From: Cirrosporium novae-zelandiae
Taxonomy: Eukaryota
Direction of reading: 5' to 3'
Assembly: GCA_026023565.1 (NCBI GenBank)
Contig: JAPETS010000035.1
Coordinates: forward strand, 124,001-188,000
DNA length: 64,000 nucleotides
Below the pieces are notes generated by a model. That model was given only the letters and a program-made list of their open reading frames with translations. It had not been told where the DNA came from and searched no databases. A program made the translations under genes and the position numbers. This document shows, in pieces, positions 18,640 through 40,609 of the stretch. Positions within the stretch are counted from its first letter, which is position 1. Each line of letters begins with the position of its first letter.

Positions 18640-19012
18640 AATCCGTTATGAAGCTGAGGTTGCCTTTGGTCCACAGAATGTGGTAGCTGATGGTTTATCG
18701 AGAACCATTCTTAGAGGTGACACTTGTGAACCAGACTTTTGGGTGGAGGAATTGCAACGCAAGCTAGATGAAGAGGGCCCTGAATGGGTCTGGAAGGATG
18801 GAAAGGGTGGCTACCTAGACCTACTGAAAAGATTAACAGAGAATGAAGTTAGTGAAGTACTAGAACCGGGTACACTCGAAAGCAAGTCTGTATTTTCGGT
18901 GGGGACGATCGAATCGTGGGTTGAAGCCTATGAACACTCATATTCGTTCGGAGACGAATGGAGGTTTCTGAGAACAGGCCTGGTACTACATCTACCTTGT
19001 TATTTTGTGTAA
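18640..19012 (+). mobile_element. Ty3/gypsy LTR-retrotransposon pol relic (RNase H end and linker)
   Basis: GPQNVVADGLSRT matches the GxxNxxADALSR motif that closes gypsy RNase H. Isolated fragment with no RT or integrase. Confidence 0.65.
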
Positions 19013-20105
19013 GGATGGGTTCTGGACTCGTCCCACCTCGTCCAGCGGGACGGGGTTAACATCAACCCGGCACATTTTATTCCTGGCGTGTCGCAGCCTT
19101 CTTACATAGAAGGTCTATTTATTCAATGTAAGTTGCGAATCCTGCGAATCTAGTACCTGAACCAAACAATATCGAAATGACAGCCTTATTGTGCTGTATC
19201 AAGTGACGCCCTGGGGTCGTACATGTTATTTTGTGTTTCGTGGGGGGCCGAGGCCCATGGGGGATGCGGTTCCCGGCGCTTCCTGGCCTTGCAGCTGCGG
19301 CTGCGATCCTTACACAAAATAACATATATAAAACCAGCTTTTCTATTAGAATAATTCATCATCTTTACAACCACTCGTTTTTCATGTCAAAATCTTTCAA
19401 CTTAGCCCCTTGGTCTAGAAAAATGTACTGGCATTCCAATATCCTTTAAAATAATTTTTTTTCTTTTTGATTTGATAATTTCCCCCTATATAAAAGCTAT
19501 ATGTTTATTGTCATCTTCAGCTTTATCATCTAGCACCCCCTTGGCGTGTACGGTTCATACTGACGTCGTAGTCTCCCTTCTCTCGTCGTTTTCCTCAGCT
19601 TTATCTTCCAGCGCTCCTATCGAATGTGCGGTTCCATGTTCACCATCTCTCCTCTTATTGTTTTGTCGTACCGAACTCGCGTCTTATTCCATTACGCATC
19701 TTTTCAACCCGATCATCTGTTAGGGTTATAAACCGGTCACGTGTCACCCACTATTTAGCCAGCGATCCCACATATAGAATCCACAAGTTTGTCGCATCTA
19801 TCTGCTCCAATATCATCATGGCTACCTCCGTTGCAAAGGGGAAAGGGCGCATGGACGTTTCCACCCCGAGTCAAAGTTCCCAAGAGACAGAGCCTAGTAT
19901 TTAGTAGCATACCCTTCACACTCTTAGGTTGATTGAAGTTTTCCTTGCCTTGCTAGACAGCCGTGTCGAAAGACCAGTTTGATCTCTCATCAAAATCATC
20001 TAGCTAATACCACACTATTAACTATCCCCTTTGTTATGGATTAGTTTTGTTTGCTTTGTTTGTTTGAGGATAGACCACCACCAACCCCCACCTTTTTCCC
20101 TTATT

Positions 20106-20290
20106 ATGCTTCCCTCTCGCTCTGCTATTAACGTCCCCGCCGCTTCCACTGCTAGTCGTGGTGTCGTTTCTACCTGACCCAAGTGTCTAAAATATTTTTG
20201 GCGCTTCGCTGCTAATCCCTCCCTCGTCTACACCTAGTAGCCAGGCCCCTCTAGGGAGTATTTAAAGAACTGCTTTCTATCTGCGAGATT
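20106..20290 (+). pseudogene. Decayed small Cys-containing ORF with RIP-like stops
   Basis: MLPSRSAINVPAASTASRGVVST*PKCLKYFWRFAANPSLVYT**PGPSREYLKNC; the stops and Tyr codons are one transition away from CGA/CAG/TGT. Confidence 0.3.
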
Positions 20291-23200
20291 GGAGTTTTTC
20301 TTCTGAAAGGTTCGTCGCTTCCAGGCTCATGAATATAGACTTCATTTTTCCATCAAAATCAACACCAGCAGACGTAGCATCGACAACAATCCAATTTACA
20401 ACCGTCGAGGAGCTGTTTAAGCTGATTAATTATGTCACCGAAGATATCTGAAGACATGAGAACAAAAGAGTAAATCTACTATTTTGATAATAACATGGCT
20501 CACCAATTTCCTCAAACGGTTAACTGTGGATAACTTTCTTACAAATACCGTATTATAACTTTATCCTTGAAATTGTCGCCTGGCAAGCATGTACACCTTT
20601 AAGGCCCCGTCGCGGGCTGCTGCGACGTAGGAAACCATAAATTACACAGTCTCTCCTTCGTTCACCAATTTTTGGATAAAACAGTCTACGGAAATCAATA
20701 TTTTCACAATCATAAATGATATCTGGGATGCTAGCGGCTTTGGAAGATGGAGACAAGGCTGGTACACGGAGGAGAAAAAGACGAAGAAAAAGATCAAAGG
20801 ATGGGCAAGGGCCAGGCAAGGGCCAAAGGCTACGATGAAAGGAAAGCCAAAAGGGCAAACCGAATGGAAGAACGATAAAAAATCAGATTAACATTAAATA
20901 ACGAGTTATTTTGTGTAAAGTACATTGGTACAGAAAAATCAACTAGACTTCTTTATATCTAAATTACCATTTTTGCTCCTACTACAGTATAATATCCTCG
21001 CTCGCGCCGACCCCCCCTGCCTCGTCTGTCGCCCGCACTAGCCAACTTCCTGTTGGCTGTACCGATTTCACTACTCTTTTAGATGATTCTACCCCAGATG
21101 CCTCCACCTAAAGTTAATGGATCAAATTCGTTGGCTTGAATTGATTCCCGCTGCCGACGTAACTAATGTACCCCTTTCCTTGTTTGTTTTGTTCTGTTCT
21201 AATTAACCTTTTATAGCATTTGGCTCACTCTCCCCTCCTCGCGTGGCGCCTAGGGTGTCCGATGGTCCCGGCGTTTGTCTCTGTTCTTGAGTAGATAGTT
21301 CATGCTGTATCCGCTGCTGTGGAGGAGGAGCCCTATTTGTTCGTGGTAAGTTGATGCTTTTGATGCGTTTTGCATTCTGATGCCGGGTTTCTTCTGAGGA
21401 TGGATTGGAACCCTTTCGATTGGCCTGGAGTTGCCCAAGAGGATATCACTCGCACCAACGAGCTTCTCACCCACTCAAGTGAAGATGATAATGATGTTCG
21501 TATACTTGATGATGTAGTTGCGGGAGCGGCTAGCTTATGTGCAAAACAGGGGATTCTCGGCGCTGGCCAAAATATTAAAAAATTACAACTCCATCAACAA
21601 CAACTTTCCTTGGGAAAACTCTCAGCGTGTTAAATCAAACGCAGAACTCAACGAAATTCCAATAGCAGAAGAAAATATTTTGGCTTTGGTCGTTTCACAT
21701 TTTCAAAGCCCCATCCGATATTCTACTTAACAGGTGATTAGATATACGTTGTTTTTTTCATTTTTAATTGTCCGTTTTATTTAGAGAGAGGTTATATTAT
21801 CCCAGTAGCTTGATACCATAAGCTATATTTTTTCTAGTCTGTTCAAATTAAGAGGATATAAATACTCTTTGAACATTCCTATCTTCTTTATTCTATAGGA
21901 CCAATCTAATTTACCTGCATATAATTGTGATGTAGTTATTATGAAGGGGATATTCATTTTCATTTACCTGACTAAGACAAGATCTGGGACCTGCACGAAA
22001 AGGAAGAGTAGTTATCGATATACGCGGTTTGAACAAAATCTCTGAGCCAGATGTGTATCCTTCACCACTACAAGCAGACATCATTTCAACAACCAGAGAT
22101 TATCCTTTGATTACAATTATAGATGGTCTCTCCCTTTTTTTTTTTTTTCAATGGAACATGCATGCACCCTTCGAGCCGCCCGCTTGGTATGTGTAATTTC
22201 ACATCATCGTAGCCAACGAAATTTTTAATGTTGTGGTACCAAGGTCACAGAAATTCTGTTTTTTCTACGTGCAAAGAGAGAGAGATAGATTTAATACTTC
22301 GAGAGTTTAGAACATTCGTTCGAGCATACATTGGTGATATATATGGTGGTTGGTTCTAAATCTTTTCGCTTGCACTTAGATTAATTACTTGAGAGCAGTG
22401 CTCGCAGGTGACTCAATCTATCCTCACCAAGTCCTGGAAGCGGATTAGGTGGTTCGCATGATGAAATCTCCTTTACAGTCATACCTCCTCCGCACCAATA
22501 TGGGCTTAGGGAAGACGCTCACCCTACTAACCACTATGCTAGCAATTATCCGACGCCAGGATCATTCCACGCAGCGTCTTTGACAGTTTGGAACCACGAT
22601 ATCACCAGGGGGGGGGGACCAGTGCCAGGCAGAACTTACAATAACTCTATCTCCCTTCAGGATATAGCTCTCTCGTTTTATGTTTCTTAGTAATGCAAGA
22701 CCAAGTACATAGGAACTTGAAGAACTTGGAGGATTGCAACATCCCCCCTTTTCATTTGAAAATTACTTTTATTTGCTTAAGCTGCATGTCGAATACCCGA
22801 AAACTGGATATTTTGGTTGCTTGCCACACATTCCACTTTAATTTCATCTTTCGTTCTTAGCTGGGAATTCCTAACTAAAATTCTGAATTTTTTTTTATAG
22901 GTTATATATAGTGTTATAGCAGACAAGGGAAAGGTTAGTGAAATGATGGTTAGAGTTGAACCTACCTATAGAAAGGGGCTAGCATAAAGACAGAAAATTT
23001 TACAAAACAATCCCACCTAGCCTTGTTAAGTGACATTTATACAACCGCGGATTCTCTCTCCAATCTTTCTCATCTTTTCTCTTCGGTCGTCAACCACTCT
23101 GAATTACAGTCTACAAGAGACAAACAAGCTTTATACTGTATATTATAATCCGTTACCTTTTCAAGGGCATATTCTATTCTCAAAGAAAGGAAAGAAGACT

Positions 23201-26200
23201 TAAAGTGATTATTAATGAGATTGTAGAAAGTAGAGATTAGCAACCATGCACAGGAGAACGAAAAAGGGATAGAAATTACCAGGGTAGTAGGAATCAATAA
23301 TAAGAAAGGCGATGAATGATGGTATGAAACTTGATAAAAGAAGAATACCAATAGAGTAATCGCTTGCCCAGGTAAGGTGGTAGCAGTAGAGCTAAATGAA
23401 CGGGGGGGATAAATGCTGTCTAAAAGCTGATAAAATAAACACCTATCCACATATACTATGTTTTCGTTTTCCATCTTTCTTCTACATTAAAGAACTTAAG
23501 TCACCTCAAGAAATAACCAGACCCCGAGGGCCTCGTTTGGTACCGCAAACTACGTTTTTTAAATGATATTCGTTTGCTTTCAAACGCTGCACGACACCAT
23601 CCACCCCCACACATTCCCATCTTTGGGGAAATCCAAGGCAGCACCGTACGTGTCCTCTTCTACCCTCTTCCTCTCTCGGGAGTGTTCCGTATCGAAATTT
23701 ACCAATGGATGCACAATGTGGAAATTGGAACTAGACTCTTAACAGGAGGTTTCATTCCACGAGTGAAAGAAAAAAAGAAAAGATTTATGAAAATTTTTTT
23801 AGGGTATTGTAAGGACTGCAGTTTGTTGCAGCTTTAGGGTGTGTATGGGCTAATTAATTATTATGTGTAGGAAGGAGAACTGGATCGAGTTAGCAACTGC
23901 GAAAATAATTAGAGATCTTCGATAGTAAAAGGCTAAAGGGGTAGGTAGGTGATAAAAAATAATGAGAATCGACTAGTATGCGCCCTGGGAGCTCCCAATG
24001 TTTCTTTTTATGAGAAGATACTCGTGGCTCCTTTGAGTCACCAATGAGATTCTTTTTTCTATGCACTTCTGCTTCCCCTTGATTACCATGTTCGCCAATT
24101 TATCTTTTGTGCAATCCATATAGGCACGTCGAAAGGGTTTTCGTTGATAGGATTCTGGGGCAAGATATAGCAAATGGAGTATGCAGGTAGGTGTATGGTA
24201 TATGGTATACAGAATAGATTGCTATTGAAGAGTTCTTCTTGTGAGGATCTAGACTACGAATATTGGTATGGAATTGCAGCCCATTGGGGTTCCCCCATGC
24301 AGGGTATATTTGTATTTCTCACAGCCTTTTAGATGATTTAATACTTGAACTAAGTCACAATCATTAGTCACACTTGCAACTCCCCTGTGAAAGACCATGT
24401 CAAATATATTCAGTACACAGGCGTGATAGGTTTTTGGGTAGGCAATTAAAGCCTAACCCATCAAGCACAGACCGTCTCTTTATTTAGCCCAGTCGATCCC
24501 TACCGCTAGGGACCCGTCGATCACAAGTGCCAGGAAGACTTTCCCTGTGCTCGCAATCCCCCAATGCATCTAGGTTGTCTGTGTAGGGCTGGAACCTGTT
24601 AACTTCCTTGCTATGTCGGTTGACATCTCAAATACCATCTGCACTGTTTCATGGAAGAGTAGGCGGGAGAGTGAGTGTGCAAGGCTCTATGGTGCACTGT
24701 GGCTGAACCCCAGCCAATAATATTGAGTCACAGTGGCCTGTCTGCCTTATGCATGCATTCGACCGTCCCGCAGCCTTAGCCCCATCAGGCTGAAAGTGTT
24801 ACAGGGCCTTTCTTTCCCCAGATGTGGGGCGCGCTCGACCATCTCTTAGCCCGGAGAAGTACTAAGATATTGAACTTGCTCATAAGCTGTCCTATCTAAA
24901 CCATCTGCGACCATATCGAAATTTACATTTCCATTCTATCCTCTCAAGCCCATAGCGCACCATCCTCTTGCCACATCATCCCGCGCTATCGGCTATCGAG
25001 GTGTCATACCTTACTTTCGTGGTCCAATTCCATACGTACGGTAGCTAATTAACTACTATCAAGCAAGCAAGTTCGCTAAATGAAACTGAGGCGTCTTCGC
25101 GGAGGAGCTGATGTCCTGAACTGTCCCCGCATGGCTGGTAGGGTTGTCATATAAGGATTATGATAGATAGGTTAGATCACTATTTCCAGGCAGAATCAGG
25201 CATCAACTACTTTGCTGAATCATATTGAGCCTCAAGATCTTATCATTGGGCCAATTGACTTTTACCACCCTTGCTAGCGGTAGCTACCCGGGGACAGTTC
25301 AGGAAATATTCGAATGCTTCTGTCTCTGCTTCTGCTTTTGCCCGTTACGATTTCAAAGCCCGAATGAACGACAGACCAACAGGACCCTAAACAATCAGCC
25401 ATCAGCGAGGCTATAGAGCTGATACAAAAGCCCCACTGTAGCCCGTTGCCACTCAAGCAACACCTCGAGCCAATGAATACGATTATCGAAAGGTGAATTT
25501 AGCTAGCCAGCCAGCATGGGATAGTTGGTTTGTTAGCTGTCCATCCCATCCATTCCATTCCATCCACGACCAAAGCGATGCGATAGGCGAATAGATATAA
25601 AAAGGGTGTGTGTGCACGGACGCAGGGCCTGATCACATGATTATATGTGCCCTAGTTACTCCACAAATCCAGCGGGTACCCAAGTATGGAGAATTAGGGT
25701 CTCTGAAACTGATCGACAATGAAAGACTGCAGCAGTGATCAGCCTAGTAGCTTCACTTTGCTTTGCTCTGTTATGCTCACTCATCTATCTGTATTTTCCA
25801 CAACAACCCTACTTTCGGCCGCCGAGGCATATTCCGCAAGCCCTGCTCTCAACTTTCAATTTTATCCTCAACCACAACTTTTCGACCTCGATTGGCAAGT
25901 TCCACGGATGTCTTATACTAGTTTTATTAAGTAAGGCAAGGTAAGCAATTTGTGTAAGTTGATTAGGTAGATCTAAGATAGCATAAAAGAGCCTCTTTAA
26001 CTTTCCTACGTGTTGTATTTTGGTTTGGGGGGGGGGACGGGGTAATGTTTTCATTTTTATTATATCTATTCATTTATTCTATCTCATTGCAGGTATAAGT
26101 AAGAAAGAAAGAAAGAAAGACTATAACGAGGGGAAGGGGAAGGGGAAGGGGGGGGTGAGGACGCGTTGGACGTTTGATGAATGGGGCATTGTTCGAATTT

Positions 26201-27498
26201 GAGTGAGGATTGATTTCTTCTTCTAATAGGGGTAGGCTGTAGGTAGGTAGGTATGTCAATGTCAATGACAGGGCGGGCGGGTGGCTCGTGGCTGGCTGTA
26301 ATAGTAGTAGTAGTAGTGTATGATGTACATATACTAGCGGTAGTATACTGAAATACCAAGTAAACATAAGCTGCTAGTCAATAAACCCGTTTTTAACAAT
26401 ATCCATATAGTAAGTATTGCGCGTTGTATTGTGTTGGATTGGATTCGATTGTAGCAGAGATCTGGTTTAATTTTGGTTTTGGTTCTTGAAAAAAGAGGGA
26501 AAGAAAGAAAGCCTCTCCCCCCCTCCTGCTAAAACTCTTTTTTTTTTTTCTTTTTTTCTTCCTCCTTCTCTTTTTTTCTTTTCTTTACTCTTTCTACTCT
26601 CTATATCAAATATCAAATAATTCCAATTTATAACTTAACTGTATCACTCACTCACTGATTAATTATATAAGAATCCTTAACCCCCCCCACTCCCCTATTC
26701 CTATTACTCTCTCTAACCCCCTAATCCTCCTCACTTAAGATAATTTGAATTCTCATATCTTCTATGCCAACTCCTCTCACCCATCCCTCTTCCTATCCTA
26801 ACTACTATACCACACTTTCACCTCACAGAAAAACAAGGGAAAACAAAACAAATAAATCCAAAAGATCCATCTCTCCCTCAACCCCTTCCCTACCCTATAC
26901 CAACCATAAATGACCCATATCCTATCCTATCGACCCATTCATATAACGATCCCTTTCTTCCTTTTTTCTGCTTTCCCTTATTTATTTATTTTTTTTCTAG
27001 CTTCTGGCTTCTGGATTTTGATTCGTAAGTATGGAATCAATCAATAAATAAAGGAAGGAAGAAAGTATAGGCGTTTGGGGTGGTTGGTTTTGGTTATTAA
27101 GTTGAGGATGGGGCTAGGGAAAGGGAAAAGGGGTTTGATGGGACTGGGATTGGGTTATGGGATTTGTATGGATGAAGGAAGGAGTAAGGGGGAAGGGGAG
27201 AAAGGGGTGTGGGGATGGATATGTGAGATGTGGGATAGGGAAATAACTAACATCATCTAACAAGGTGTTTTTTTTTTTTCACAATTTCTGTTCTTCTTCA
27301 GCCTACCCACCCCATCCATATTGACATGGACCTTTAATGATTTATGACATGTATGTGTGACGTTGCAATTATTTTTGAATGATGGTCTAAAAGGCAGGGA
27401 AATATAGATATTCCCCGCCTAAGGGTCCGTGCCCACGAGCTAACCCCAATAAGGTGGGTCATACAGGTAAAGGGCAAAAACGCTGCACAACCACATAT

Positions 27499-28944
27499 CT
27501 ACATCTTATCCCCCGCCAACCCAACCTCCGAATTCCTCTGCCCCGCCAAAACCCCCTCCAAAAACTTCCTCAACGCGTTCTCGCTCAACCCACCGCCAAG
27601 CACATGGCCCAGCGCATGACCCTCAATTTCCGCACTAGCAATAAACCCGAGTTTCATTGCGTCGACGATTAGTTCTAGGGTGTCGTGTTGTTTTAGAGCT
27701 AGTTTAGTGTGTCCTGTTTATGGTGTAAATGGGGAGGAGAGAGAAGGGGGATAAAGGGGGGGGATCTTAAACTTACTTTTTAGAAATGGGTCTTGATGTT
27801 TACGGATTTTGATTTCGTATTTTGTGACCGAGGAGGCGGGATAGGTTGTTTTTAGATCGATTGGGTGGCCTACGCTGCGGACGATGTAGTTGTCGCGTTC
27901 TTTTTTGTAGTGGAAGTAGTGGGGTTCTAGCAATGGGTTAGTTGGGTAGGTGGCTTTGGTTATTTACTCGTGATGATGAACTGGGTGGTCCCACCTTTTT
28001 CTCCCTTCTTCGGCTCGATTGATTCATCTTTCAGATCGAAAAGCGTGGACCCTGTGAGTGTATGACTGAGAGCCCAGGGCTCCGCGCCTTCTTTTTTGGC
28101 AACATTCGTTTTCTTCACGTTGACTTCCGGTAGGCCGATGGCTTTCGGTGTTGTATGGGCACGGTTCAATATCTCTTTCATAGTATTTTCATCCTCTATC
28201 CCCAACTAATTAGTCACCATGGCCCGAAATAGAATTGGGGGTGGATGGATGGATGGGTAAAAAATACTATAGACGATGATGCCCTTCGTAAAGCTAGAAG
28301 TGCCGATGTAGGAGATGAGGAAGAATACGTCGATGAAACCGATGAGTCTAATTTTGCCAGGCCATCGTTCACCGTTTATTTGAATCTCCCAGGGATGGAT
28401 GTCGCTTTTTAGCATACCGTCAGCGCCTTTTGCTACGATGAGATATATGGATATTGAAACTAGGCAGAGGATGTGAGGGAGGAAGGGGAGAGTTATGCAC
28501 GCACCAATCGCATTGAAGGCTGTTGTCGTCGATCGATCTTCCGAATAGGTGGAGAATTCGGTGGTAAGAAGCCATGCTAATTGCTCTCGAAAGCTTTTGT
28601 TTTGTTTTTTTTTTTCACAAGAAAGAGTGATGTGCTAGAATCGAGTTTCCCTATAAAGTCGGATTCAACGAGAAGTGGTGGGATGCACTCACCGTGCAAG
28701 TAAGAGCTACGGCAACTCTAGTTTTGATATCTGGTTAAGCCTCAGGATCTGCAGGACTAGACGTGAGCAAGACGCTTGCATGCACTTGCATATGCGCTTC
28801 CGATATATTTGTCTCGTCTTCCCCGACATGCATTAGGACATCAGTAGTTGATACGAGCGCTGGTAGGGATTCTGAAGTGGCAAAGAGCCAACGAGATAGG
28901 GAGAAAATGTGATTCCAGCAACTGCAGAAGATAAATCCAAGCAT
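27499..28944 (-). CDS. Orphan hypothetical protein, eight exons, ~270-306 aa
   Basis: Exons 28786-28944 (or 28833), 28693-28706, 28505-28593, 28418-28432, 28268-28347, 27968-28205, 27777-27926 and 27499-27674 join in frame through GT-AG introns: MHVGEDETNISEAHMQLLLARFREQLAWLLTTEFSTYSEDRS...EPWALSHTLTGSTLFDLKD...GGTTQFIITKPHYFHY...LRKFLEGVLAGQRNSEVGLAGDKM*. No family recognised. Confidence 0.7.
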
Positions 28945-29321
28945 GGACCACTCGCCCTCCCCTAATCTTCTACTTTGTTGATTAGACACAGCGACGTGGG
29001 GTTCTATCATGCACGCTAGTAGCTGCACTTACAAGCATGCAGATCAGCTCGTTTCTCTCAGCCTTCGCTTTTATCCAGCTCCGCGGAGAGGTTAGAGCCG
29101 CAAATGTCAATATCTATAAATAATTTCCCATATTTGGACGAATTCTTGTCTTGTAAACCGTGATAACTCTCTAATAGTGTCCTTAGAACCCGATACAGCT
29201 TTCGTCTATTGGAACCTCTCTAAGTTGTCTTACTGTCTCTTATCTAGCCTTGGTCTGGTATCATAAACAACCATATCAACACCTCGCTAGGAGCTTTACC
29301 TGCACCAGGAATAGCAACAAG

Positions 29322-32300
29322 ATGACATCGCAGTGGACTGAACGGAACGAAATCACCAAAACCGGGAGGAAGGTGGTTGAAGTAACAGGGACATCCTCTT
29401 CCATCAACAATGCGAGTGCAGCAGCACACTTCTTGGCCAGCAGAACCAACTCCGGCTACAACATCATCCGAGATGGTTCCGTGAAACGTATTCTCGATCC
29501 GGCTTTCGGAAAGGGAGTGCAAACGATGATCAACTTTCTGGTCGGCTCTGGCTTCAAGCCGAACTTTAATCGCGACGATTTCCAAGGTTCCGATCATTAC
29601 GGGGGCGCATATATCCTCGATCCATCTTCCGTTGACCGCGAGCGCAGACGGATCCCTCCTCGCATGTGGGATATTGATAGCGGTAATCTTGTGGAAGAGT
29701 TGGATGCCGACAAGGTCGGTTACTACAGCATCTTGTCCCACAGCTGGAAAGGCCGTGAAATCGACTACGCATTTGTGTCCAAAGTGAAGCAGGCGAGCGA
29801 AAAGAAGTTGAAATATGACGATATATACAACAACCAACCCAAAGTGGACATCAAAGGCAGTGCTATTCCTCCACCCGAAGTGAGAAAATATGCCTATCTG
29901 GATGACGTTACCGAGCAGAATGATGTCCAAAAGATCAAAGCCCAATGTAATGAAAATCTTCGGCTTCAACGCCTCAAGATAGATGCTGCAGTCCGGAAAT
30001 CTGGTCAAGGATCCATAAACGTGAGGGACCTTCTTGACAAGCGTGCCAAGGTCAAGGACGCAGAATGGGTGCATTCAAAAGTTAAGAGGGAAGTAAAACA
30101 AAAGAAAAGAGAACTCCTCGCCAAGCAAATGGTAGATGGCACCCTTAAATGGCGTCGAGCGGAAATGGGTGTGAGTGTGGAAACGACAACGGAAGCCAAA
30201 GACGAGGAGGGGAAAGCAACGGATCCTCAAGAGGATGGCAACACTCAGAGTAAAGAGAAAGAGCTGGAAGAGGCTAGCGATAAACTTAGAAGAGGGGAAG
30301 AAACACTAAGCGAAGCAGAGGCTGGATGTAAATCCATCGACAAGTCTCTCTGTGATGCTGTCGACGAGCTGTTTCCGTTGCTGCAACAAAGATTTTCTGC
30401 GCATAAGATCGAAAAGTCGATCGCCGAGACCAGACGGATTCTAGACACGGGAATCTTTCCAACAACTCAGGGCAGGAGATACCTGTGGAACGATACTTGC
30501 TGCATCAATAAAGCGATTGTTGGCGAACACATCGAGTCGCTGGCTTTGATGGGCGAATGGTACACCAACGCCGAGTTCTGTCTGGTGCATCTTGATACAG
30601 CTCCTTCAAGCGTGGAATGGGTTACGGTTTGGGATTATTTGGAGAGTGAAGATCGTCTGTATGAAATGTCGGCAAACTTTAAAGAATTTAAGGATGTTAA
30701 AAAGGAGACAAAACCACATTGGGCGACACGGGGCTGGACACTGCAAGAGCTCGCCTTGAGCAAGATGGCCTTTTTTGTTAACAATGTCTGGACCCCCTTG
30801 AACCGGCCTGTTGAAAATCTTGGCCCATATTACTACTTATGGTCGTACCTTAAGCAGTACACTGATGGCTCTAGCTTGTTCAGTATTAGTAAGGCGGCGA
30901 AAGTCCTAGACGACATTAAGGAGTTGAGGAAAGTGATGGATGAGGGAGAAAAGGTAAGCCTCGCTGCTACGGACAACATGGTACCGAGACTTGGTTAGTA
31001 GCTAGAGTTACTGATGGGAATATTCAGATAACGTTTGTCAATGTCAAAGACGGCTTTGAGAAGAAGCATAGGCTAATAGGCATCCTTAACTTCCTCGAGG
31101 TTGAGTTTCCAAAGAACATAGACGATCTCACTGCCAATGCTCACATTTACCATTCAATCGAAGATGCGGCGAAGAAGATCGCTAGGATATGCAAGGGCGA
31201 GAACTCGGCTCGTACGTCGAGAATAAAAACGCTTCTCGGTTCGTTTGAGATATCAGAAGAACAGGTCGAGACGCTGATAAAACTACTGATAAAAGATCTG
31301 GTCAAGGCCGAGGACCCTGTGGACAAAGACCCTATACACGAAGATAGGAAACGCATTCATGACTTCAGCGAGGTCCCTGCGTTGGAGTGCTGTCGAGGTG
31401 CTAGCAAAACAAAGCTCACTGCAGTCGACATCCTAGCTTTAGCCTCCAAAAGGAACGTGACTGTTGCTACGGATCAAGTATATTCGTTGATGGGAATGCT
31501 TGGTGTCAAGTTCGCTGCGTTCCATGCGGAGGGTTTAACCAAAGCGTTGTCTCGTCTCCTTGATGAAGTCATCACCACTTCCAAGGATGTCTCGGTCTTC
31601 CATTGGACTGGGAGAGAGTTAGGAAGTCCCGTTATGGGACGGTCGCTATACCCAGTCAACTTCGACGCGTTCAAGTCGCCGGGAAATAATAACGATGACG
31701 TAAAAGCAGACCGGCTGGTGGCAAATGCGCTTCAAGATCAGCGGAAGGACCTATTGGAAGTCTCCGAGAACCTTAGCACGGTGCTCCAAAAATTACTCAG
31801 CCTGATCAATAGTTCGACCGAGGCCAATCAACCGATCAACGAGCTGCTGCTTATGCTCAATAAGATCTCAGAAAGTGACATAAAGGATATTAAACCCCAG
31901 CTCCTCGATCTCCGCAAGACAGTAACGTATCTTGAAGATCAGGAAAAATATGACGCTAAAAAGGATGATGCAAAGGACGAAGACAGTAAAGGTAACTCTA
32001 AGATGGAGGATGACGATGACAAAAAGACTTCTCTCTTCGGAATGAAAGGACCTTCACTCCCTTTATCCATGCATTTTGGTAAGCCGGGGCGAACGAAGCC
32101 ATCCGACAAGCGAGTTGAACAACCTACCGAAAAGGAGCCACCGAAGGGAGACACAGCAGAGTTCAAGCTCAAAAAATTTGGGATGAAGGAATCTAAACAC
32201 TCAAATAGCCCCATAGAGACGTCTACTACACCGCAGGTCTCCACGAAGAGTCTCGACTTGAAAAATATTCAGACTAGATTCAAAAACAAATATGACACTG

Positions 32301-33508
32301 TCCTCGGAAACATTACAGGCACACTTGAACCCTCAAATGATTTAGAGGACTTTAAAAAATGGTCAGAGAAGATCAAACCCATTCCACCGTGCAATCTTGC
32401 CGGACCTGGCATTCCGGAGCGCAATAAGAATTCTCAGGATGAGTCTTTAAATAAAAAAGACCTACCAGATGCGTCTAAGAATAGCACCATGATCTCACCG
32501 AACCCCATCATCGTAGATACCTCTGGCATTGGGGGGGTATTTGATATTCAAAGAATTATAGTGACGATGCAGAACCCCGATAAACTTCGCAAAGAGATCG
32601 GCAAACTGACAAGTGTAAATCACAAAATTGGTGGGGAATGCACAATCAGCACGGGATTTGCTTCAGTCGCAGTGGCTTTCTGTTGCGAAAAGCATGTGCT
32701 GCAAAAGCAGCTCGACGCGTGCGATGTCATTGAGAATACAATCTTAGAGCGGGGAGTAGGTAGCAGAACTTCTGCATCGCCTACAGACGCCAACATGAAA
32801 GTCGTCACCGATCAGAATCCACAATCAAGCGAAAGAGCAACAGACACAAAGCCAGAAGAGAATGAATCCGGCATGAAAGCCAAAACACACGCCCAAAAAC
32901 GCATGCAGCGTATGCTCAAGTTCGTACAAGAATCCGACCTGAACCTCATAGCCGGTGAATGGGTCCTTGCACGTTTCTCCGGCGTGCGCGACGCAAAATG
33001 GTTCCTGTGCCGGCTGGAACTAGGTTCGACACACGAGTACTACGGGTGGCGGATTGCGACAGATGAATTCGATTTCTCAACGAGCGCGGTACCCGAAAAG
33101 GAACTCGTTGGCTGGTGGGAGACCTATATGAACCAGAAGAAAGTCGAACTATGCCGGATCGTGCGCCTGGCAATCCAAAGCCGCAAACTAAAAGCTGCCG
33201 AAACGAAAATATCGGAGAATCACAAGCCAGGGTCTCCAGAATCCCAGAACCAGGAGGAAGATGAGGAGGAAGAGATATCGACCTGGGCAGCGATCTGCAA
33301 GTACGGCTTCGACAATGTGACGCTGGTCGGTACTTGGCTGCTGCGTAACATCACAGATAAATATACCGTGCAGCTGAATCAAGCGCTTGACGAGACGGTC
33401 TTAAGGCCGGTCCCGAAGCATCTGAGAACTGCGATTATGAATTTGCATGAGGATAGAAATTGGCTTCCTGCTATGTTTATTCCAGCAGCAAAGGTGCATA
33501 TGCTGTAG
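29322..33508 (+). CDS. HET (heterokaryon incompatibility) domain protein, ~1370 aa, with a long coiled-coil insertion
   Basis: HET blocks YSILSHSWKGREI, YLWNDTCCINK, ESLALMGEWYTNAEFCLVHL and WATRGWTLQEL, followed by DQVYSLMGMLGV. Intron 30954-31027 joins the two long ORFs in frame. Confidence 0.9.
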
Positions 33509-34691
33509 TTAGCTAGGGAGGACAACACTAATGATGCCGAGAATGTTGTTTATAATGAACACTCGTTGTTGTTGAATGGATGTATGGTATTGCGTGCGTA
33601 TAGTTCGTATGAATCATTTACGTAGAGAAACTTATAATCCTGGGCTACGGAAGATAATTGTTCCGGTTTGAACCACCTAGGTAGGATCTGTTTGGTTATA
33701 GATGCGAATTTTATGGTGGGGAAGGGGATTTGTTTGGTGTGTGTTCTCTTCCTGTGCGCTGGTCCCATCGCCACTCCATCTTCCATAACACCTATCAACT
33801 TGTATAAGAACATTTCCTGATACTATGACCCTTCTAGCCACTTTCTCCAGTCTTGTTCCTCCCTTTCCGATAGTCTTGCTGATGCTTCCTCATAGTTCCC
33901 AGCTCTCTCATTCACTATTCTCTCGCTCACAGCTAGCATCGCTATCAACGAAATATTCTCATTTGCTTCTTGTGGCATGAATGATGTTGAAGAAAGTGTT
34001 CAAGGCCTGTTGGGGGAGCTTCGAGGGTTATAAGGGATATTAAGGCGAGGGGATTCAGACTTGGAGTTTGTTAGGGATGTCTTGCACAGGTGAGGATAAG
34101 AATATGGGAAGATGGGGAATAGGAAAATAGTATCTCGCATGATAAAGACCTATCGTCACGTTTGAGGTTAAGGGGTGTTTCGATAAAAGGGGGGAGGCGT
34201 GTAAGCGGTACTAACGAGGTGACAGTTAAAACCATCACCAAAACCCTTAGAAATACAATTATTTTATATCTTATAACCCCAACCTGACCACCTTCAAGGC
34301 GCCCTTTGCACCTAGACTTCTTTAAATCAAGCAAACACACAAAACAAGACACAATCAATCAATCAATCCACCAGTCGAGCCATCAACGTGTGAAAGAACA
34401 ACAGACACACAAAGTCCATAGAATCACAGTGCATGCTCATATTCAAATAAGAAGGCTGTTGGCGGAGGATAGGGTGGTAGGTTTTCTAAGAATTAAGATT
34501 AGAATCAAAGTAGACTCTCTCGACGCATAACGAGGTATTAGTATACGATAAAACTCGGGTTCGAGACTCCGCTTTGAGTGACAAGGGATAATGACCTCGT
34601 GATTTTTCTGGTGGGATTTGGATTTAATAGGTGAAAAGGCCATTGATCTTTTACCCAAGCAATCGTACCACCCCCTCCACCAGTTCTGGAT

Positions 34692-36099
34692 TCACGCATG
34701 AATTGTACCCAGTGTTGGGGGTATTTTCTTATTCTCCTTCTTATTTTCCTTCTTCTGCTCTTGTTTTCCCTCATCCATCCATTCCCAAGCAAGCATCCTC
34801 CAGTTCAACTCCTGTCTCCAAAACAGCCCATACCCTAGCCCGCCAGTCCTCTGTCCCGTTATAACGCCCCCACAGCATTGCAAATCCGTAGGTTCTGGGT
34901 TTATGGCACCCGTAGCCGATACTCTCTGGCCGAAGATGATCGCTTTAAATCTGGAATGTAGGATGGCCATTGCACACATTACGCAAGGCTCGTGGGTTAA
35001 ATAAATATCAAGGTTGAGACAGAGGTAAGCCGAAGGAATGGTGTTGGGAGCATTATACACGTCGTACTCTAACTGTGTTATAGGTCTGTCAAGGAAGACG
35101 TCCTTGCGGAGGGGGTTTGCTTCGCAACTATTTTCTGGCTGAAGGTGTTTCATAGCTACCATGCCAATCGCACGCATTGTAGCATGAGCCATGACATTTC
35201 CAGCATTCGTGTCAATAGCACTGTTAGGACCACATCTTCGAGCGTCTCCAGCAATTGCTACAGGGACGGGTCCCCCAGGTGCGTTACCATCCACAATGAT
35301 TGCTCCAAATTGCTCCCCTAACCTTTTCGAAGAGCTTTGAAAGGCTGCTGCTTTCGCCATGGCCATCCAAGTTCCTACTGTTGGTGCGATGCGGGTTTCA
35401 TATCGGGAAATAATGCTTGGATGTGCCCCAAACGGGTTATTCTTTTGATAAACTGTCGGCCAATATTTCTGTGTCCAGGCCACAGCTTGTTCTTGTGATG
35501 TTGGTGCTAGTAATGGAACAGGCACCCTGCTTAGGCTAATAGGAAGCCCATTTAGAGCGAATGGTTCGTTTTCGGACAACAACCGTATCAAGTCGACGGT
35601 ATCGATTAATTTAGCAGCGCAGACGAGCATATAAGTATCGGTATCAGAGTCATCTGCTGGGATATCCTTCACAGTGCCATTCTCTTGACTTTGATCAAGG
35701 TCATCGAGGTCGGATTTCTGGCCTGTCGGACGAACCTGGTTCTCTGCCAGAATTATCTTCACTGTAGCTGGTAAGAATTTTGTACGGGAGAATCGTCGCA
35801 GATGTTGAAGGTTAACAGCATCTTGGTCAGTAATCTTGCGAACGGTGCTATAAAGCCTATGATTAGCCATAGACAAGACTTGAATAAGCAAGTCTAGCCT
35901 ACTTGAGAGTAATGCTCGCGGATTTCAATGGAACTTGAAGAACATGAACATCAACTTCGAGAGTGTCAGTCGACTGTGAATTCTGATTTTTAAATGAGAA
36001 TATCGTACTCAATTGCAATTTCGACTGTGTCTCTGCCACAGTCTTTAGAGATATCAGCCTGCCCTGTTCAGGCTTGAAGGTAGATGATGAGAAGGACAT
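34692..36099 (-). CDS. TAD3: tRNA-specific adenosine-34 deaminase non-catalytic subunit
   Basis: WTQKYWPTVY, HATMRAI (HxE glutamate absent, as expected for Tad3) and YLTHEPCVMCAMAILHSRF. Two short 5' introns inferred. Confidence 0.88.
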
Positions 36100-36660: not shown

Positions 36661-37701
36661 ATGGCTCCACCAGATGCAGCAGTGTACCCCGCGGCAACTG
36701 GGCCAGCGAAAAATATTGTTGATAAGCATAGTGAACCAGCAGACCTTGTCCTCTACTCTGGCTGGTTTTGCCCGTGAGCAGTATCCCAGTATCCCATGAT
36801 TTAGTGAGTGAGGAACAGACAATTAACCTTGGATAGTTTCGGTGCCCATCTCTGTTCTCGGATTCAAGACAGGAATAGCTAATCACCCCTCCATAGTCCA
36901 ACGCGTCTGGTCCGTCCTAGAGGAGAAAGGAATCCCGTACCAGTACGGATCATCGATGCACCCCGAGAAGCATTATCTATACTAACAGCAACAACAATGC
37001 AGATATGTCGAAGTAAATCCCTACCACAAGCCCGAATCCCTCCTCAAACTAAACCCCCGCGGTCTCGTCCCCACCCTCCAATACCAAAACAAGCCCCTTT
37101 TCGAAAGCAACGTTGTCCTCGAATTCCTCGAAGATGCCTATCCCTCCCATAAACCCTCCCTGCGTCCTTCGGATCCCTACGAACGCGCGAGAGCTCGCAT
37201 CTGGACCGACTACGTGACCACCAGAATCATCCCTGGCTATCATCGGTTCTTGCAGTTCCAGCCGGGCCGATCGGATAAGACGATTGAAGATGTAAGACAG
37301 GAATTTTTGAACCATCTCAAGGAATGGACCAATGAAATGGATCCTGCGGGACCCTTTTTCCTGGGCAAGGAACCGTCATTGATTGATTTTGTGATGGGAC
37401 CTTGGGCCCTGAGGCTTTGGGTTTTTGATCAATTCAAAGGCGGACTTGGTATCCCGGAGACAGGTGCAAGCAATGATGACAAAACTTGGATTCGTTGGAG
37501 GAAATGGTATGATGCCATTAGCGCACACCCGAGCTTGAAAAACACGATGAGCGACGGGGAGCACTATATCCCCCTGTACAAACGCTAGTAGGTTTCAATT
37601 CCCAAGTTAAGAAATTTTGACCTTGACCGTGCCTTAGCGCCGATGATGAAGCCCAAAGTGAGTTGGCCAAAGCCTCCAGGGCCGGGAGAGGAGTACCGTA
37701 A
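36661..37701 (+). CDS. Glutathione S-transferase, omega-like (CPF motif)
   Basis: LYSGWFCP|F|VQRVW..., VEVNPYHKP, NPRGLVPTL, FESNVVLEFLED, GPFFLGKEPSLIDF. Four introns, including a 5-nt exon at 36837-36841. Stop at 37699-37701. Confidence 0.9.
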
Positions 37702-38218: not shown

Positions 38219-40609
38219 TTAATTACTGCTGCGACTGGTACTGCGTGACAATTTGTAATCTGGGTCAAGAATAAACCAGTCCCTTTCGTTATCGTAACGA
38301 TAGGCTTTGAAATCAACCCCATAAGGTTTCTGTTAAATGTCAGTAAATCTTGCACCGGAGCCAAAAGAATGGTAACCCACCGGTTCAAGCATATAGAGCA
38401 TTCCAAGGGGAACATCGAGATCCGCAATCTCCTCGTGCTGAAGGCCTTTGAAATAGGCTAGTAATACCCTGACCACGCTTCTATGTCCGATAAGCAGCAC
38501 ATGGTCGGTCATTCGCTCAACTTCTACGATGACTGCACGCAGGCGGTTGATGACATCCAAATAACCCTCGCCCCCAGGTCCAGGATAACGATAATGGAGC
38601 TTGTCGATCCTTCGTTGTTGGTAGTCTCCAGGGAAACGCTTCTTAATCTCTTCGTAGGTCAAGCCTTCCATAATACCAGCATTAAGTTCGTCAAGCATTT
38701 TCATTTGCTTCAACTCAAATTCATCCTCGTCAAAATATTGTCCCGTCTCAATACTTCGCTTGAGCATTGAGGTCCAGACACAAAAGGCTTTGGGGGACTG
38801 GTCATTATCGGAACCCAAAGTGGATGTATATGCAGGATTTGGGGGCGAGCTATCACCAGGTCGGGGTGGAAAGTGTGTCGACAATGCTCTGCTGCGCTGG
38901 CGGGCTTCCCAAATCTTGCGTTCATGTTCAATGAATGCAGTCAAAGTCTTGGCGTATTTTTTCCCGTTAGGAGATAAAGTGGAATCGCCACCGATCTTAC
39001 CAGCAACATTATCTTGAGATTCTCCATGCCGAGTAATCCATATTTGTCTAGGAGCCAGGTTGAAGTTTAGGAGATAGTAGACTGCTTGTGCCGATAGAAA
39101 CCCCTTGATTTGGTGAGAAATAACTTTTCGTCCGACATCAACCATCTAGGCATGTTAGCTATTTGATATTGATACAAAGCATGTTGAGTAGGTACCTGGC
39201 AATAAGCCATTCCGTTCCGCTCTTCGTATTCACCCAAGGGCACGTAACGTTTTTGGTAGAGATCCACCCGTTTCTTGAAATCAGCCAATGCCGTGACGGG
39301 ATCCTTGTCCTTGTAGTCTGGACCCGACAGCTTGAGGCGCATATTTGCTTCAAGAAGCTAAGTACTGGTCAGCATGAGACATCTAGCAGGTGGATTTCAT
39401 CATACATTTTCATCAAGGCAAAGACTCTCAACAAATAAAACTCCAAGGTCCGGGCCGGCTCTTTCACGAATGTGCTTCATGATATGTTGTCTTCTTTCCA
39501 GGGTGCTATTGGTTGCATCGAGTATTCCCACGGAGCCGCCTTGGTTCAGGACATAGTCTAGGAGCTCATCCAAGGTAGCCAATGCTACTTGCTCACGAAG
39601 TTGAGCAGCCCTGACATTTGTTGGGTCGAAGAAGCTTGCGGACTGATCCATCTGCTCGGCGCTTGAACGTTGCTCGGACGGTGATTCCAATGCCCTATTT
39701 TCGGAATTCCCATTCTGTTCTGGATATTTGGCATCATGAAATGATGTTTCGTTTTGCGCCGAGTTTGGTGCTTCCTCGGGGGAGCTCACGGGTGGCTCGC
39801 CGTTGACGAGAATCGTAGCTGCTTTTGCTGCAGCATCAAACGAGTTTTTATGGTCTCGAATATCATATGAGGTGTCCACCGAAATGCTAGATGACCTTAT
39901 GGCATCTTCAGGTCGCACATTCAAGTGAGGAAATGAACGCGCCGGACCACCTGCTGCAACTCGTCGTCTTTCCCCAACATTGAATATTCTTGTATCGTGT
40001 TGCAGCCAATTGAGATATCTTGCCATCTTTTTGGTGATATAACTCTTGCCACGAGCTGGCAAACCGACCATGACCACCACCAACTTTGAACCAACATCTC
40101 GTTGAGAAATGCGCCCATCGGGAGAAACCCTTGATTTGGTCAATCCAGGTATATCAAGTGTTGTGGCTTTAAGGCGAGATGAACTGGACTTTGGGCGTAA
40201 AGGGTGACTAAGAGAAGGTGTTAGTGATGAGGCGCAAGTGTTCAGTTGCAAGAATTTCAATGGGAGGATCATACATCTTTGGACTGCTGGGAGCTGAACT
40301 GGCAGGTGTGTCGGTTAGGGCTGTTCCCAGGCTCCCTTTGAAAGAGACTTGACGGCTAGCAACTTTATAATCCCTGTGATGATTCTGGTGAGGAAACCTA
40401 GGTGGAGGCATTAAGCCATTAGGAGTATGGCCATGATGTCTATCATAAACAGTTGTGTCCATGATTGGAGATAAAGGACAGTGAGAGTTGTCGTTCACGA
40501 AGGCAGTTTCTGAGGGAGAGGAAAGTTGTTGTTTGAATGAGTCTGGGTCGCTGACATGATCGGAATTCTCGGTGGGGACTACAGTCTGTGACTCGCTGAG
40601 AAGTGGCAT
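38219..40609 (-). CDS. PFK26: 6-phosphofructo-2-kinase/fructose-2,6-bisphosphatase
   Basis: P-loop VMVGLPARGKSY, ILDATN, kinase C-terminal part MRLKLSGPDY and phosphatase motif ITRHGES. Four introns inferred. Confidence 0.93.

What the first reader, a model, noticed from the sequence alone, without database searches (positions are those of the whole stretch)
27499..33508. Head-to-head pair of an eight-exon orphan gene and an atypical HET-domain gene: candidate new two-gene allorecognition/cell-death locus
Seen: a gene missed by the ORF track (eight exons, two of only 14 and 15 nt, all in frame) starts about 380-490 bp from the HET gene on the opposite strand, so the two share a short bidirectional promoter. 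The pair sits on the edge of a decayed repeat island. Known: HET-domain death effectors often act with a tightly linked unrelated partner (Neurospora het-c/pin-c, un-24/het-6). Inference: the orphan is a trigger, inhibitor or guardee of this HET protein, forming an undescribed two-component self/non-self or toxin-antidote module.
Basis: partly seen in the sequence, partly recalled or inferred. Interest (0 to 1): 0.8.

Follow-up and report, generated by a model that had tools for sequence, protein, structure and literature searches.

The report
Ancient HET gene with PH-like partner
A large fungal cell-death-type (HET) gene and a small, unstudied neighbour facing it have stayed side by side across very distant groups of filamentous fungi, so they probably work together, but they do not look like a variable self/non-self locus.

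Summary
The head-to-head pair is real. The window comes from a Cirrosporium novae-zelandiae MAG. On the + strand, 29322-33508 is a two-exon, 1370-aa HET gene identical to GenBank M1834_005787. Its HET/DUF8212 core is split by two large inserts and followed by conserved C-terminal domains of unknown fold.

The minus-strand gene (28575-27499) has five exons, not eight, has no micro-exons, and encodes 266 aa. Its ATG lies 746 bp from the HET ATG. GenBank holds only a 192-aa truncated form of it.

It is not an orphan. It belongs to an unnamed family without a Pfam match that spans Pezizomycotina and evolves under purifying selection (dN/dS 0.09-0.18). An AlphaFold model (pLDDT 81) looks like a split PH-like domain.

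In 12 of 12 other comparable named assemblies (Leotiomycetes, Eurotiomycetes, Pezizomycetes) the two genes carry consecutive locus tags or accessions. In 5 of 5 metagenome loci with enough upstream DNA they are head to head, while the flanks are not syntenic.

I found no sign of divergent alleles (A. niger complex at least 97.4% identical). Best reading: an ancient, co-regulated effector-partner module, not a polymorphic het locus. Binding and function were not tested.

The parts
27499..28575 (-). Small partner gene: 5 exons, 266 aa (GenBank M1834_005786 is a 5'-truncated 192-aa form). Predicted split PH-like domain plus a C-terminal helical tail.
   Evidence: Comparative model. It agrees with annotated homologues. 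Residues 75-266 are identical to P0311. Fold, modelled on homologue P0149.
28505..28575 (-). Exon 1 (71 nt; MASYHR... N-terminus, conserved from Met1). It ends in phase 2 before a GTGCGT donor.
   Evidence: The same 71-nt exon occurs in L002, L004, L007 and L009.
28268..28404 (-). Exon 2 (137 nt; DIHPWE...GIIVY, the most conserved block). It follows a 100-nt intron with an unusual AAG acceptor. The next donor is a weak GTATTT.
   Evidence: 59-68% identity to the loci; 137 nt in all five genes.
27968..28195 (-). Exon 3 (228 nt): variable, charged linker inserted in the PH-like fold.
   Evidence: poorly alignable linker; low pLDDT at the linker in the model of the homologue.
27777..27926 (-). 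Exon 4 (150 nt; ...SVGHPIDLKT...). It is flanked by a 41-nt and a 63-nt intron. Introns at the corresponding places in the protein occur in L009 but not in the Helotiales loci.
27499..27713 (-). Exon 5 (215 nt including the TAG stop; ...KQHDTLELIVDAMKLG...GLAGDKM).
28576..29321 (.). 746-bp divergent intergenic region (presumed shared promoter). Homologous loci have about 555-938 bp.
   Evidence: No robust shared motif was found. Promoter function is inferred.
29322..33508 (+). HET-family gene, 1370 aa (M1834_005787): exon 1 29322-30953, intron 30954-31027, exon 2 31028-33508.
29655..29759 (+). HET block 1 (aa about 112-146, ...YYSILSHSWKG...). It is followed by a variable, charged insert of about 200 aa (aa about 150-350).
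   Evidence: near-invariant P112 R114 T120 Y135 S139 H140 W142 K143 G144 E146; conservation profile.
30381..30836 (+). HET blocks 2-3 (aa about 354-505; W.DTCCINK ... ATRGWTLQE).
31418..31687 (+). HET/DUF8212-like block (aa about 675-764; ...TDQVYSLMGMLGV...VFHW). An insert of about 170 aa separates it from the previous block.
   Evidence: hhalign probability 99.9%, E 3.6e-34 to canonical HET+DUF8212 proteins.
32498..33505 (+). Conserved C-terminal region of unknown fold (aa about 1035-1110, 1185-1260 and the tail 1340-1370, conserved to the last residues).
   Evidence: No Pfam or PDB sequence match. Weak atlas leads only.

Best explanation
This is an ancient two-gene unit that is conserved across distant classes of Pezizomycotina. 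A giant HET-domain protein and a small partner protein are transcribed in opposite directions from a shared intergenic region of about 0.5-0.9 kb.

The giant protein has a TIR-like death-effector type core split by two inserts, plus conserved C-terminal domains. The partner is about 230-270 aa, and its two conserved halves are predicted to assemble into one split PH-like beta-sandwich around a variable linker.

I propose that the two genes are co-expressed and functionally coupled. The PH-like protein would act as a regulatory or adaptor subunit of the HET protein. It could be an inhibitor or gate, a targeting factor, or a monitored partner. The role would be conserved, probably cell-death or stress related, and not strain-to-strain allorecognition.

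Shown here: both genes are real, both evolve under purifying selection, their adjacency is deeply conserved without flanking synteny, and the fold class of the partner is predicted. Inferred: shared promoter activity, physical or genetic interaction, and any death activity.
For: Gene reality and structure.
- Exons 1 and 2 are 71 and 137 nt in the window and in L002, L004, L007 and L009, with introns in the same phase.
- The spliced products match independently annotated proteins.
- dN/dS is 0.09-0.18 among three Helotiales loci. For the window against the others, pN is 0.34-0.36 and pS 0.75-0.84.

Linkage.
- All 5 metagenome loci with at least 1.2 kb upstream of the HET homologue carry the partner on the opposite strand. 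The other 4 of 9 loci lack upstream DNA.
- No other window gene is matched in the 6.8-kb and 2.5-kb downstream flanks of L003 and L004.
- Consecutive locus tags or accessions occur in Cudoniella, Stromatinia, Cadophora M221, Ciborinia, Hyaloscypha variabilis (2 assemblies), Cadophora DSE1049, A. niger IFM63326, Aspergillus sp. HF37, A. bombycis, Geopyxis and Peziza. That is 12 of 12 assemblies where both genes were seen with comparable identifiers, plus the window itself.
- The pair therefore spans Pezizomycetes, Eurotiomycetes, Leotiomycetes and Xylobotryomycetes.
- HET loci normally show no synteny even between Neurospora, Podospora and A. oryzae (PMC4540973, passages read).

Fold. The AF2 model of homologue P0149 has pLDDT 81.4 and pTM 0.73. 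All 50 listed VIA-align rows are PH-like domains, with Z 6.0-7.9 and about 79-122 aligned residues.

HET identity.

Expression of a homologue. A. niger An02g01260 is listed in the anafp co-expression network with Spearman 0.55 (PMC5106034, passage read; identity of An02g01260).
Against: - There is no direct evidence of interaction or co-expression for this pair.
- No conserved sequence motif was found in the intergenic regions.
- No RNA data exist for the window, so intron 1 (AAG acceptor) and intron 2 (GTATTT donor) are supported by homology only.
- The fold match is middling: Z is below 8, and Foldseek gave no hit at E <= 0.001.
- The fold was modelled on a homologue about 48% identical to the window protein, not on the window protein itself.
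- Adjacency in named genomes is inferred from consecutive identifiers. I did not see orientation or distance there.
- Adjacency in Sordariomycetes and Dothideomycetes, where the HET family is common, was not tested.
- The Penicillium malachiteum HET and partner hits have different tag prefixes and contig lengths. They could be a non-adjacent case.
Confidence: 0.55

Rival explanations
1. Conserved neighbours without a functional link. The two genes may stay together only because they share regulatory DNA or sit in a region that is hard to rearrange, and their products may never meet.
For: No interaction has been shown. No shared motif was found in the intergenic regions. Divergent gene pairs can persist passively over short distances (general knowledge).
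Against: Adjacency is kept between classes that otherwise share no flanking genes here. HET loci are otherwise notoriously non-syntenic (PMC4540973). All 12 comparable assemblies keep the pair.
Confidence: 0.2
2. One reading: a polymorphic two-gene allorecognition (het) locus in which the small protein triggers or is recognised by non-cognate HET alleles.
For: The architecture resembles known HET-plus-linked-partner loci (het-c/pin-c and un-24/het-6, PMC4540973; het-B Bh/Bp, PMC10890737, abstract). Both proteins carry variable linkers or inserts that could hold specificity.
Against: Fifteen listed variants across A. niger, A. awamori, A. phoenicis and A. welwitschiae are at least 97.4% identical, with 57 of 1405 columns variable and no hot spot. 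H. variabilis assemblies are 99% identical. There is strong purifying selection. Conservation is class-spanning and orthologue-like, unlike the lineage-restricted het genes (het-e orthologues occur only in Sordariaceae). Caveat: alleles below 90% identity would not appear in the cluster I examined.
Confidence: 0.07
3. A selfish or mobile toxin-antidote-like cassette: a HET 'poison' plus a small 'antidote' that moves or persists as a unit. This would explain the lack of flanking synteny and the position beside an ORF-poor, AT-rich stretch.
For: Flanks are not syntenic. The window copy abuts a 16-kb ORF-poor region with RIP-like indices. The Botrytis cinerea homologue has the tag BCIN_06g00090, which suggests a position near a chromosome end (inference from the tag number only).
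Against: The best HET hits listed come one or two per named genome. The window's closest relatives are Leotiomycetes at about 40% identity, and more distant classes score lower, as expected for vertical descent. No repeats or transposon domains flank the pair. Variation in the A. niger complex is low.
Confidence: 0.08

Closest known systems
Podospora anserina het-B (Bh HET+lectin-fold gene next to Bp PII-like gene), PMC10890737 (abstract and section 12 read)
   Same: A non-NLR HET-domain protein with a C-terminal non-HET domain is encoded next to a small unrelated protein. In het-B the C-terminal domain of the HET protein recognises the small partner.
   Different: [quoted passage not shown] The pair here is deeply conserved and shows no divergent alleles in the data seen. 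The partner is predicted PH-like, not PII-like. The C-terminal domain has no lectin or other match, and the HET core carries two large inserts.
Neurospora crassa het-c/pin-c and un-24/het-6 (as cited in PMC4540973, passages read)
   Same: A HET-domain gene is tightly linked to an unrelated partner gene.
   Different: Those loci are highly polymorphic. Restriction to close relatives is documented for het-e in the passages read. Their partners are a glycine-rich membrane protein and ribonucleotide reductase (recalled, not checked here). Here conservation spans classes of Pezizomycotina and the partner is a dedicated small protein with no other known role.
Canonical HET + DUF8212 proteins (Pfam PF06985 + PF26640), e.g. 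P0043 and relatives
   Same: The profile-profile match has probability 99.9% and E 3.6e-34 over the W.DTCCI.K, TRGWTLQE and ..AYSLMG..V..P...EG motifs.
   Different: An insert of about 200 aa follows block 1 and one of about 170 aa follows the TRGWTLQE block. Total length is 1200-1700 aa, with a conserved C-terminal region of about 340 aa. Pfam detects only part of HET in 26 of 26 homologues scanned, and never PF26640.
PH-like superfold domains, including split PH domains (RanBP2 Ran-binding domain 9b62_E, Vav1 PH 6new_A, PIKE split PH 2rlo, Vps36 GLUE 2cay)
   Same: The model of the partner aligns over about 79-122 residues at Z 6.0-7.9. The beta-sandwich and capping helix span residues 2-175, and a variable insert splits the fold.
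   Different: Sequence identity is 2-15% with no sequence-level relationship. An extra conserved N-terminal helix and a C-terminal helical tail are present. The ligand, if any, is unknown. The match is to a fold class, not to a family.

Membership tests
HET domain (Pfam PF06985) | Significant match to the Pfam HET profile above the gathering score | tested here: met
   41.7 bits against a cutoff of 22.5, E 1.9e-10, but only profile positions 42-146. The same partial match occurs in 26 of 26 homologues.
HET domain (Pfam PF06985) | Conserved core motifs continuing into the DUF8212-type block, as in canonical HET proteins | tested here: met
   hhalign of A5 against A9: probability 99.9%, E 3.6e-34, 218 aligned columns, interrupted by an insert of about 170 aa. 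The N-terminal ..ILSHSWKG block is near-invariant.
HET domain (Pfam PF06985) | Induces regulated cell death when activated or over-expressed | not testable with these tools
   This needs expression experiments.
Two-gene heterokaryon-incompatibility (het/vic) locus | HET gene tightly linked to an unrelated partner gene | tested here: met
   Head to head, 746 bp apart in the window. 5 of 5 informative loci. 12 of 12 comparable assemblies.
Two-gene heterokaryon-incompatibility (het/vic) locus | Highly divergent allelic haplotypes, balancing selection, trans-species polymorphism | tested here: not met
   Fifteen listed variants from the A. niger complex are at least 97.4% identical. Two H. variabilis assemblies are 99% identical for both genes. 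The test is limited: only members of one 90% cluster were seen, and there are no population data for Cirrosporium.
Two-gene heterokaryon-incompatibility (het/vic) locus | Genetic incompatibility between strains carrying different alleles | not testable with these tools
   This needs forced heterokaryons or transformation assays.
PH-like superfold (partner protein) | Beta-sandwich of two sheets capped by a C-terminal helix, structurally superposable on solved PH-like domains | tested here: inconclusive
   The model has pLDDT 81.4. All 50 listed VIA-align rows are PH-like domains, but Z is 6.0-7.9, below the tool's caution line of 8. Foldseek's best hit is the P-Rex1 PH domain at probability 0.77, E 0.067. 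The model is of homologue P0149, not of the window protein.
PH-like superfold (partner protein) | Sequence membership in a named PH, RanBD, EVH1 or PTB family | tested here: not met
   No Pfam family for the window exons, P0123 or P0166. No PDB sequence match with E < 0.38.

The most novel reading that the evidence does not exclude
The pair may be an ancestral HET-based death switch that dates to near the base of Pezizomycotina. In this reading the split PH-like protein binds and gates the TIR-like HET effector, either as an antidote or inhibitor or as a guarded sensor. The lineage-specific two-gene het loci (het-B, het-c/pin-c, un-24/het-6) would then be later elaborations of the same logic. 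That would make this the first conserved, genetically tractable entry point to what HET domains do outside allorecognition.
Probability: 0.15. Interest if true: 0.85.

Novelty: new variant of a known kind. Interest (0 to 1): 0.6.

Why it matters
HET is one of the most abundant and most variable domains in filamentous fungi. [quoted passage not shown] HET genes usually lack orthologues and synteny (PMC4540973), which blocks comparative genetics.

A HET family that keeps one or two copies per genome, a fixed architecture and the same small neighbour from Pezizomycetes to Aspergillus and Botrytis relatives offers a rare conserved handle. Knocking out either gene in a model such as A. niger could show whether the partner restrains, targets or activates a HET effector.

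The small gene also illustrates an annotation problem. It is truncated in GenBank for this genome, and only one A. niger assembly appeared in the 90% cluster of its full-length form (P0300), against 27 members in the HET cluster.

Tried and rejected
- **RNA evidence.** The look-up of sequencing runs on 27300-33600 listed no RNA holder. The exon model rests on homology only.
- **Whole genome.** None is held for this window.
- **Complex prediction.** I submitted the Peziza echinospora cognate pair: HET residues 106-545 and 984-1313 plus the 229-aa partner. The result was no verdict. ipSAE was 0.00 in two ESMFold2 runs, my alignments were not used, and the partner's own fold was uncertain. This is neither for nor against binding.
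- **First AF2 attempt.** The run on P0123 with 14 close homologues failed (pLDDT 36.8). The 127-row alignment fixed this.
- **Atlas searches.** Nothing for the partner. For the HET C-terminus there were only weak leads to DUF8212 (0.85) and Het-6_barrel (0.80) clusters. Pfam did not confirm them in 26 homologues.
- **PDB profile searches.** Nothing meaningful for either family.
- **Partner against HET profile.** No homology.
- **Shared promoter motif.** Only two overlapping 8-mers occur in 4 of 5 intergenic regions, and none of 9 nt or more. I rejected this as evidence.
- **Transposon remnants.** In the ORF-poor region, 0 of 33 ORFs matched (one weak Methyltransf_13 hit lay below the cutoff), and there are no internal repeats.
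- **Literature searches.**
  - The Botrytis locus tags returned 0 papers.
  - The A. niger tags returned 2 papers, only one of which mentions the HET homologue.
  - HET plus pleckstrin homology returned no paper holding both.
  - NCU09629 returned 3 papers, which I did not follow up, so whether it belongs to this family is unknown.
- **Earlier scan findings.** Nothing relevant.
I rejected it because no homologue conserves that stretch and MASYHR is the conserved start in all loci.

Full report
**What is in the window**

The + strand carries a two-exon gene: 29322-30953 and 31028-33508, with a 74-nt GTAAGC...CAG intron. Its 1370-aa product is identical to P0177, GenBank KAI9730546.1, 'MAG: hypothetical protein M1834_005787 [Cirrosporium novae-zelandiae]'. 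This names the organism as a member of the class Xylobotryomycetes.

Pfam sees only the second two-thirds of a HET domain (profile positions 42-146, residues 381-476, E 1.9e-10). An alignment of 40 full-length homologues (profile) shows these conserved blocks:
- residues about 80-146 (..YYSILSHSWKG..)
- residues 354-505 (W.DTCCINK ... ATRGWTLQE)
- residues 635-760 (..DQVYSLMGMLGV..VFHW)
- residues 1035-1110 and 1185-1260
- a tail conserved to the last residue

A profile-profile comparison with 19 ordinary HET+DUF8212 proteins gives probability 99.9% and E 3.6e-34. It places an insert of about 170 aa between the TRGWTLQE block and the AYSLMG block. A second, charged and variable insert of about 200 aa follows block 1. 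So 'atypical HET' is correct: this is a canonical HET core cut by two inserts and extended by a conserved C-terminal region of about 340 aa. That region has no Pfam or PDB sequence match.

**The minus-strand gene**

A scan of metagenome contigs with HET exon 1 returned nine loci. tblastn and tblastx of the window's minus-strand ORFs against them found conserved pieces upstream of the HET homologue, on the opposite strand. This held in every locus with at least 1.2 kb of upstream DNA: L002, L004, L007, L009 and, cut by the contig end, L003. L001, L006 and L008 begin inside the HET gene, and L005 has only 335 bp upstream.

Reading the loci in three frames gave consistent models:
- A 71-nt first exon starts at a conserved MASYHR.
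- A phase-2 intron follows.
- A 137-nt second exon comes next (DIHPWE...IVY, 59-68% identical to the window).
- A phase-1 intron follows, and then the rest of the gene.

In the window the rest is three exons: 28195-27968, 27926-27777 and 27713-27499. L009 has introns at the corresponding places in the protein. The three Helotiales loci have a single long exon instead.

The window gene therefore has five exons (71, 137, 228, 150 and 215 nt), introns of 100, 72, 41 and 63 nt, and 266 codons. There are no 14- or 15-nt exons, and nothing between 28576 and 28940 is conserved. The ATG-to-ATG spacing is 746 bp, not 380-490 bp.

Two splice sites are weak: the AAG acceptor of intron 1 and the GTATTT donor of intron 2. 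They are the only choices that keep the frame and reproduce the junctions seen in homologues. No RNA run could be found, so splicing remains inferred.

GenBank annotates this gene as M1834_005786 (KAI9730545.1, 192 aa). That protein equals residues 75-266 of my model. It therefore uses the same junctions as my introns 3 and 4 but misses exons 1-2.

**Not an orphan**

A search with the long exon of L007 found 54 proteins, all 'hypothetical' and without Pfam domains. They come from Hyaloscypha, Phialocephala, Cadophora, Cudoniella, Ciborinia, Stromatinia, Sclerotinia and Botrytis. Their annotated sequences carry the same QCD-C-DIHPWE and IVY-K-DD junctions.

A profile search of 1.84 billion representatives found 109 clusters at E <= 0.001. 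About 25 are full length and the rest are exon-sized fragments. Named members include:
- Aspergillus niger, A. candidus, A. carlsbadensis, A. bombycis, A. flavus
- Penicillium
- Cladophialophora
- Cladorrhinum
- the Pezizomycetes Geopyxis, Ascodesmis, Peziza and Terfezia

The window protein is 38-53% identical to them. Among L002, L004 and L007, dN/dS is 0.09-0.18. Against the window, synonymous sites are saturated (pS 0.75-0.84) while pN is 0.34-0.36.

**Linkage**

The HET family (138 proteins of 953 aa or more at E <= 1e-20) is 1200-1700 aa long. It is found in Leotiomycetes, Eurotiomycetes, Sordariomycetes, Dothideomycetes and Pezizomycetes.

Wherever both genes turned up in the same assembly with comparable identifiers, the identifiers are consecutive:

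| Assembly | Partner / HET identifiers |
|---|---|
| Cudoniella acicularis | g11079 / g11078 |
| Stromatinia cepivora | 001045 / 001044 |
| Cadophora sp. M221 | 001199 / 001200 |
| Ciborinia camelliae | 009358 / 009357 |
| Hyaloscypha variabilis F | PMD31912 / PMD31911 |
| Hyaloscypha variabilis, second assembly | V8E51_019264 / 019265 |
| Cadophora sp. DSE1049 | PVH68826 / PVH68825 |
| A. niger IFM63326 | 009455 / 009454 |
| Aspergillus sp. HF37 | RMJ27576 / RMJ27577 |
| A. bombycis | ABOM_008049 / 008050 |
| Geopyxis carbonaria | KAI5790270 / KAI5790271 |
| Peziza echinospora | KAI5797518 / KAI5797519 |

That is 12 of 12, plus the window's 005786 / 005787.

Some cases could not be compared:
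- A. sclerotioniger: both genes sit on a contig of the same length, but the tags are not positional.
- Botrytis porri and Penicillium malachiteum: the two hits come from different tag series. The latter could be a non-adjacent case.
- For many species I saw only one of the two genes.

I did not see orientation in the named genomes.

In L003 and L004, the 6.8 kb and 2.5 kb beyond the HET gene match nothing else in the 64-kb window. The window's own neighbours are ordinary: a deaminase, GSTs and PFK2. The pair is therefore conserved while its surroundings are not. By contrast, HET loci of Neurospora, Podospora and A. oryzae share no synteny except one locus (PMC4540973, passages read).

**Fold of the partner**

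A first model from 14 close sequences was useless (pLDDT 36.8). With 127 rows, the model of the H. variabilis protein P0149 reached pLDDT 81.4 and pTM 0.73. Residues 1-80 and 110-170 score above 90, and the linker and the last 30 residues score low.

Foldseek found nothing at E <= 0.001; its best hit was the P-Rex1 PH domain at probability 0.77. VIA-align against 48,161 chains listed 50 rows. All are PH-like domains: Ran-binding domains, PH domains of Vav1, Trio, Grp1 and SOS, EVH1/WH1, pICln, the split PH domain of PIKE, Vps36 GLUE and myotubularin PH-GRAM. Z is 6.0-7.9, with 79-122 residues aligned at 2.4-6.1 A.

Z under 8 is middling by the tool's own warning, so I call the fold 'probably PH-like, split by a variable insert', not proven. 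The model is of a homologue about 48% identical to the window protein, because the spliced window protein could not be handed to the tool. The partner has no profile similarity to the HET protein.

**Polymorphism**

The 90% cluster of the A. niger HET homologue holds 27 members. The 15 listed come from A. niger, A. awamori, A. phoenicis and A. welwitschiae. They are 97.4-99.9% identical, with 57 variable columns of 1405 spread along the protein. Two H. variabilis assemblies are 99% identical for both genes.

This is limited evidence, because alleles below 90% identity would sit in other clusters. It does not look like a het locus. Known het genes have highly divergent haplotypes and trans-species polymorphism (PMC10890737 abstract; PMC4540973).

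**Interpretation**

Deep conservation of adjacency without flanking synteny, purifying selection on both genes, and few homologues listed per named genome all point one way. This looks like a conserved, co-regulated and functionally coupled pair, not a fast-evolving recognition locus.

By analogy with HET proteins generally, the large protein is the likely effector. The HET domain is the death-executing, TIR-related module (PMC10890737, section 12). The PH-like protein is a plausible regulatory or adaptor subunit. I cannot say whether it inhibits, targets or is guarded.

The one complex prediction gave no verdict and counts neither way. The A. niger homologue An02g01260 is transcribed and sits in the anafp co-expression network (PMC5106034). 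That hints at expression in starving or ageing mycelium, but it says nothing about the partner.

**Novelty**

My literature searches found no description of this pair or of the small family. The supplements of the cited papers were not opened and might list these genes. The architecture, HET plus a linked unrelated partner, is known. A class-spanning, non-polymorphic version with a PH-like partner is a new variant.

Noticed in passing
window 27499-28575 (-): The GenBank model M1834_005786 (192 aa) starts at an internal Met in exon 3. It misses the conserved 74-residue N-terminal part (exons 1-2). The full-length A. niger form appeared from only one assembly in its 90% cluster, so the family is probably under-annotated.
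   Followed up: partly
window 11100-27400: A stretch of about 16 kb has no ORF of 150 aa or more and a lower GC content (0.38-0.42). TpA/ApT is 0.92-1.03 and (CpA+TpG)/(ApC+GpT) is 1.0-1.16 at 16-28 kb, which is RIP-like by thresholds I recalled. No repeats within the window and no transposon Pfam hits in 33 ORFs.
   Followed up: partly
L009:700-1577 (-): The GC-rich metagenome locus L009 has introns 3 and 4 at the corresponding places in the protein. The three Helotiales loci lack both. This suggests intron loss in Helotiales or gain elsewhere.
   Followed up: partly
window 33413-33505 (+) and 28552-28575 (-): The HET protein is conserved to its very last residues (..VHM[FL]), and the partner is conserved from its first (MASYHR.L). 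Conserved termini of this kind could be docking peptides. I did not test this.
   Followed up: no
window 34692-35924 (-), 36986-37588 (+), 38333-40314 (-), 6340-7472 (-), 9280-9735 (+): The neighbouring ORFs are ordinary: a cytidine/dCMP-deaminase-type protein, two GST-like ORFs, a 6-phosphofructo-2-kinase/His-phosphatase gene and an alpha/beta hydrolase. None is conserved next to the pair in other loci.
   Followed up: partly
literature (PMC4540973): Zhao et al. report a single HET locus, NCU09629, as conserved and syntenic between Neurospora and Podospora. I could not check whether it belongs to this family.
   Followed up: no
one search hits P0001-P0036: Many metagenome 'proteins' of 500-560 aa are just exon 1 of this HET family, called by intron-blind gene finders. 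The C-terminal 826 aa is conserved downstream in all nine loci.
   Followed up: yes
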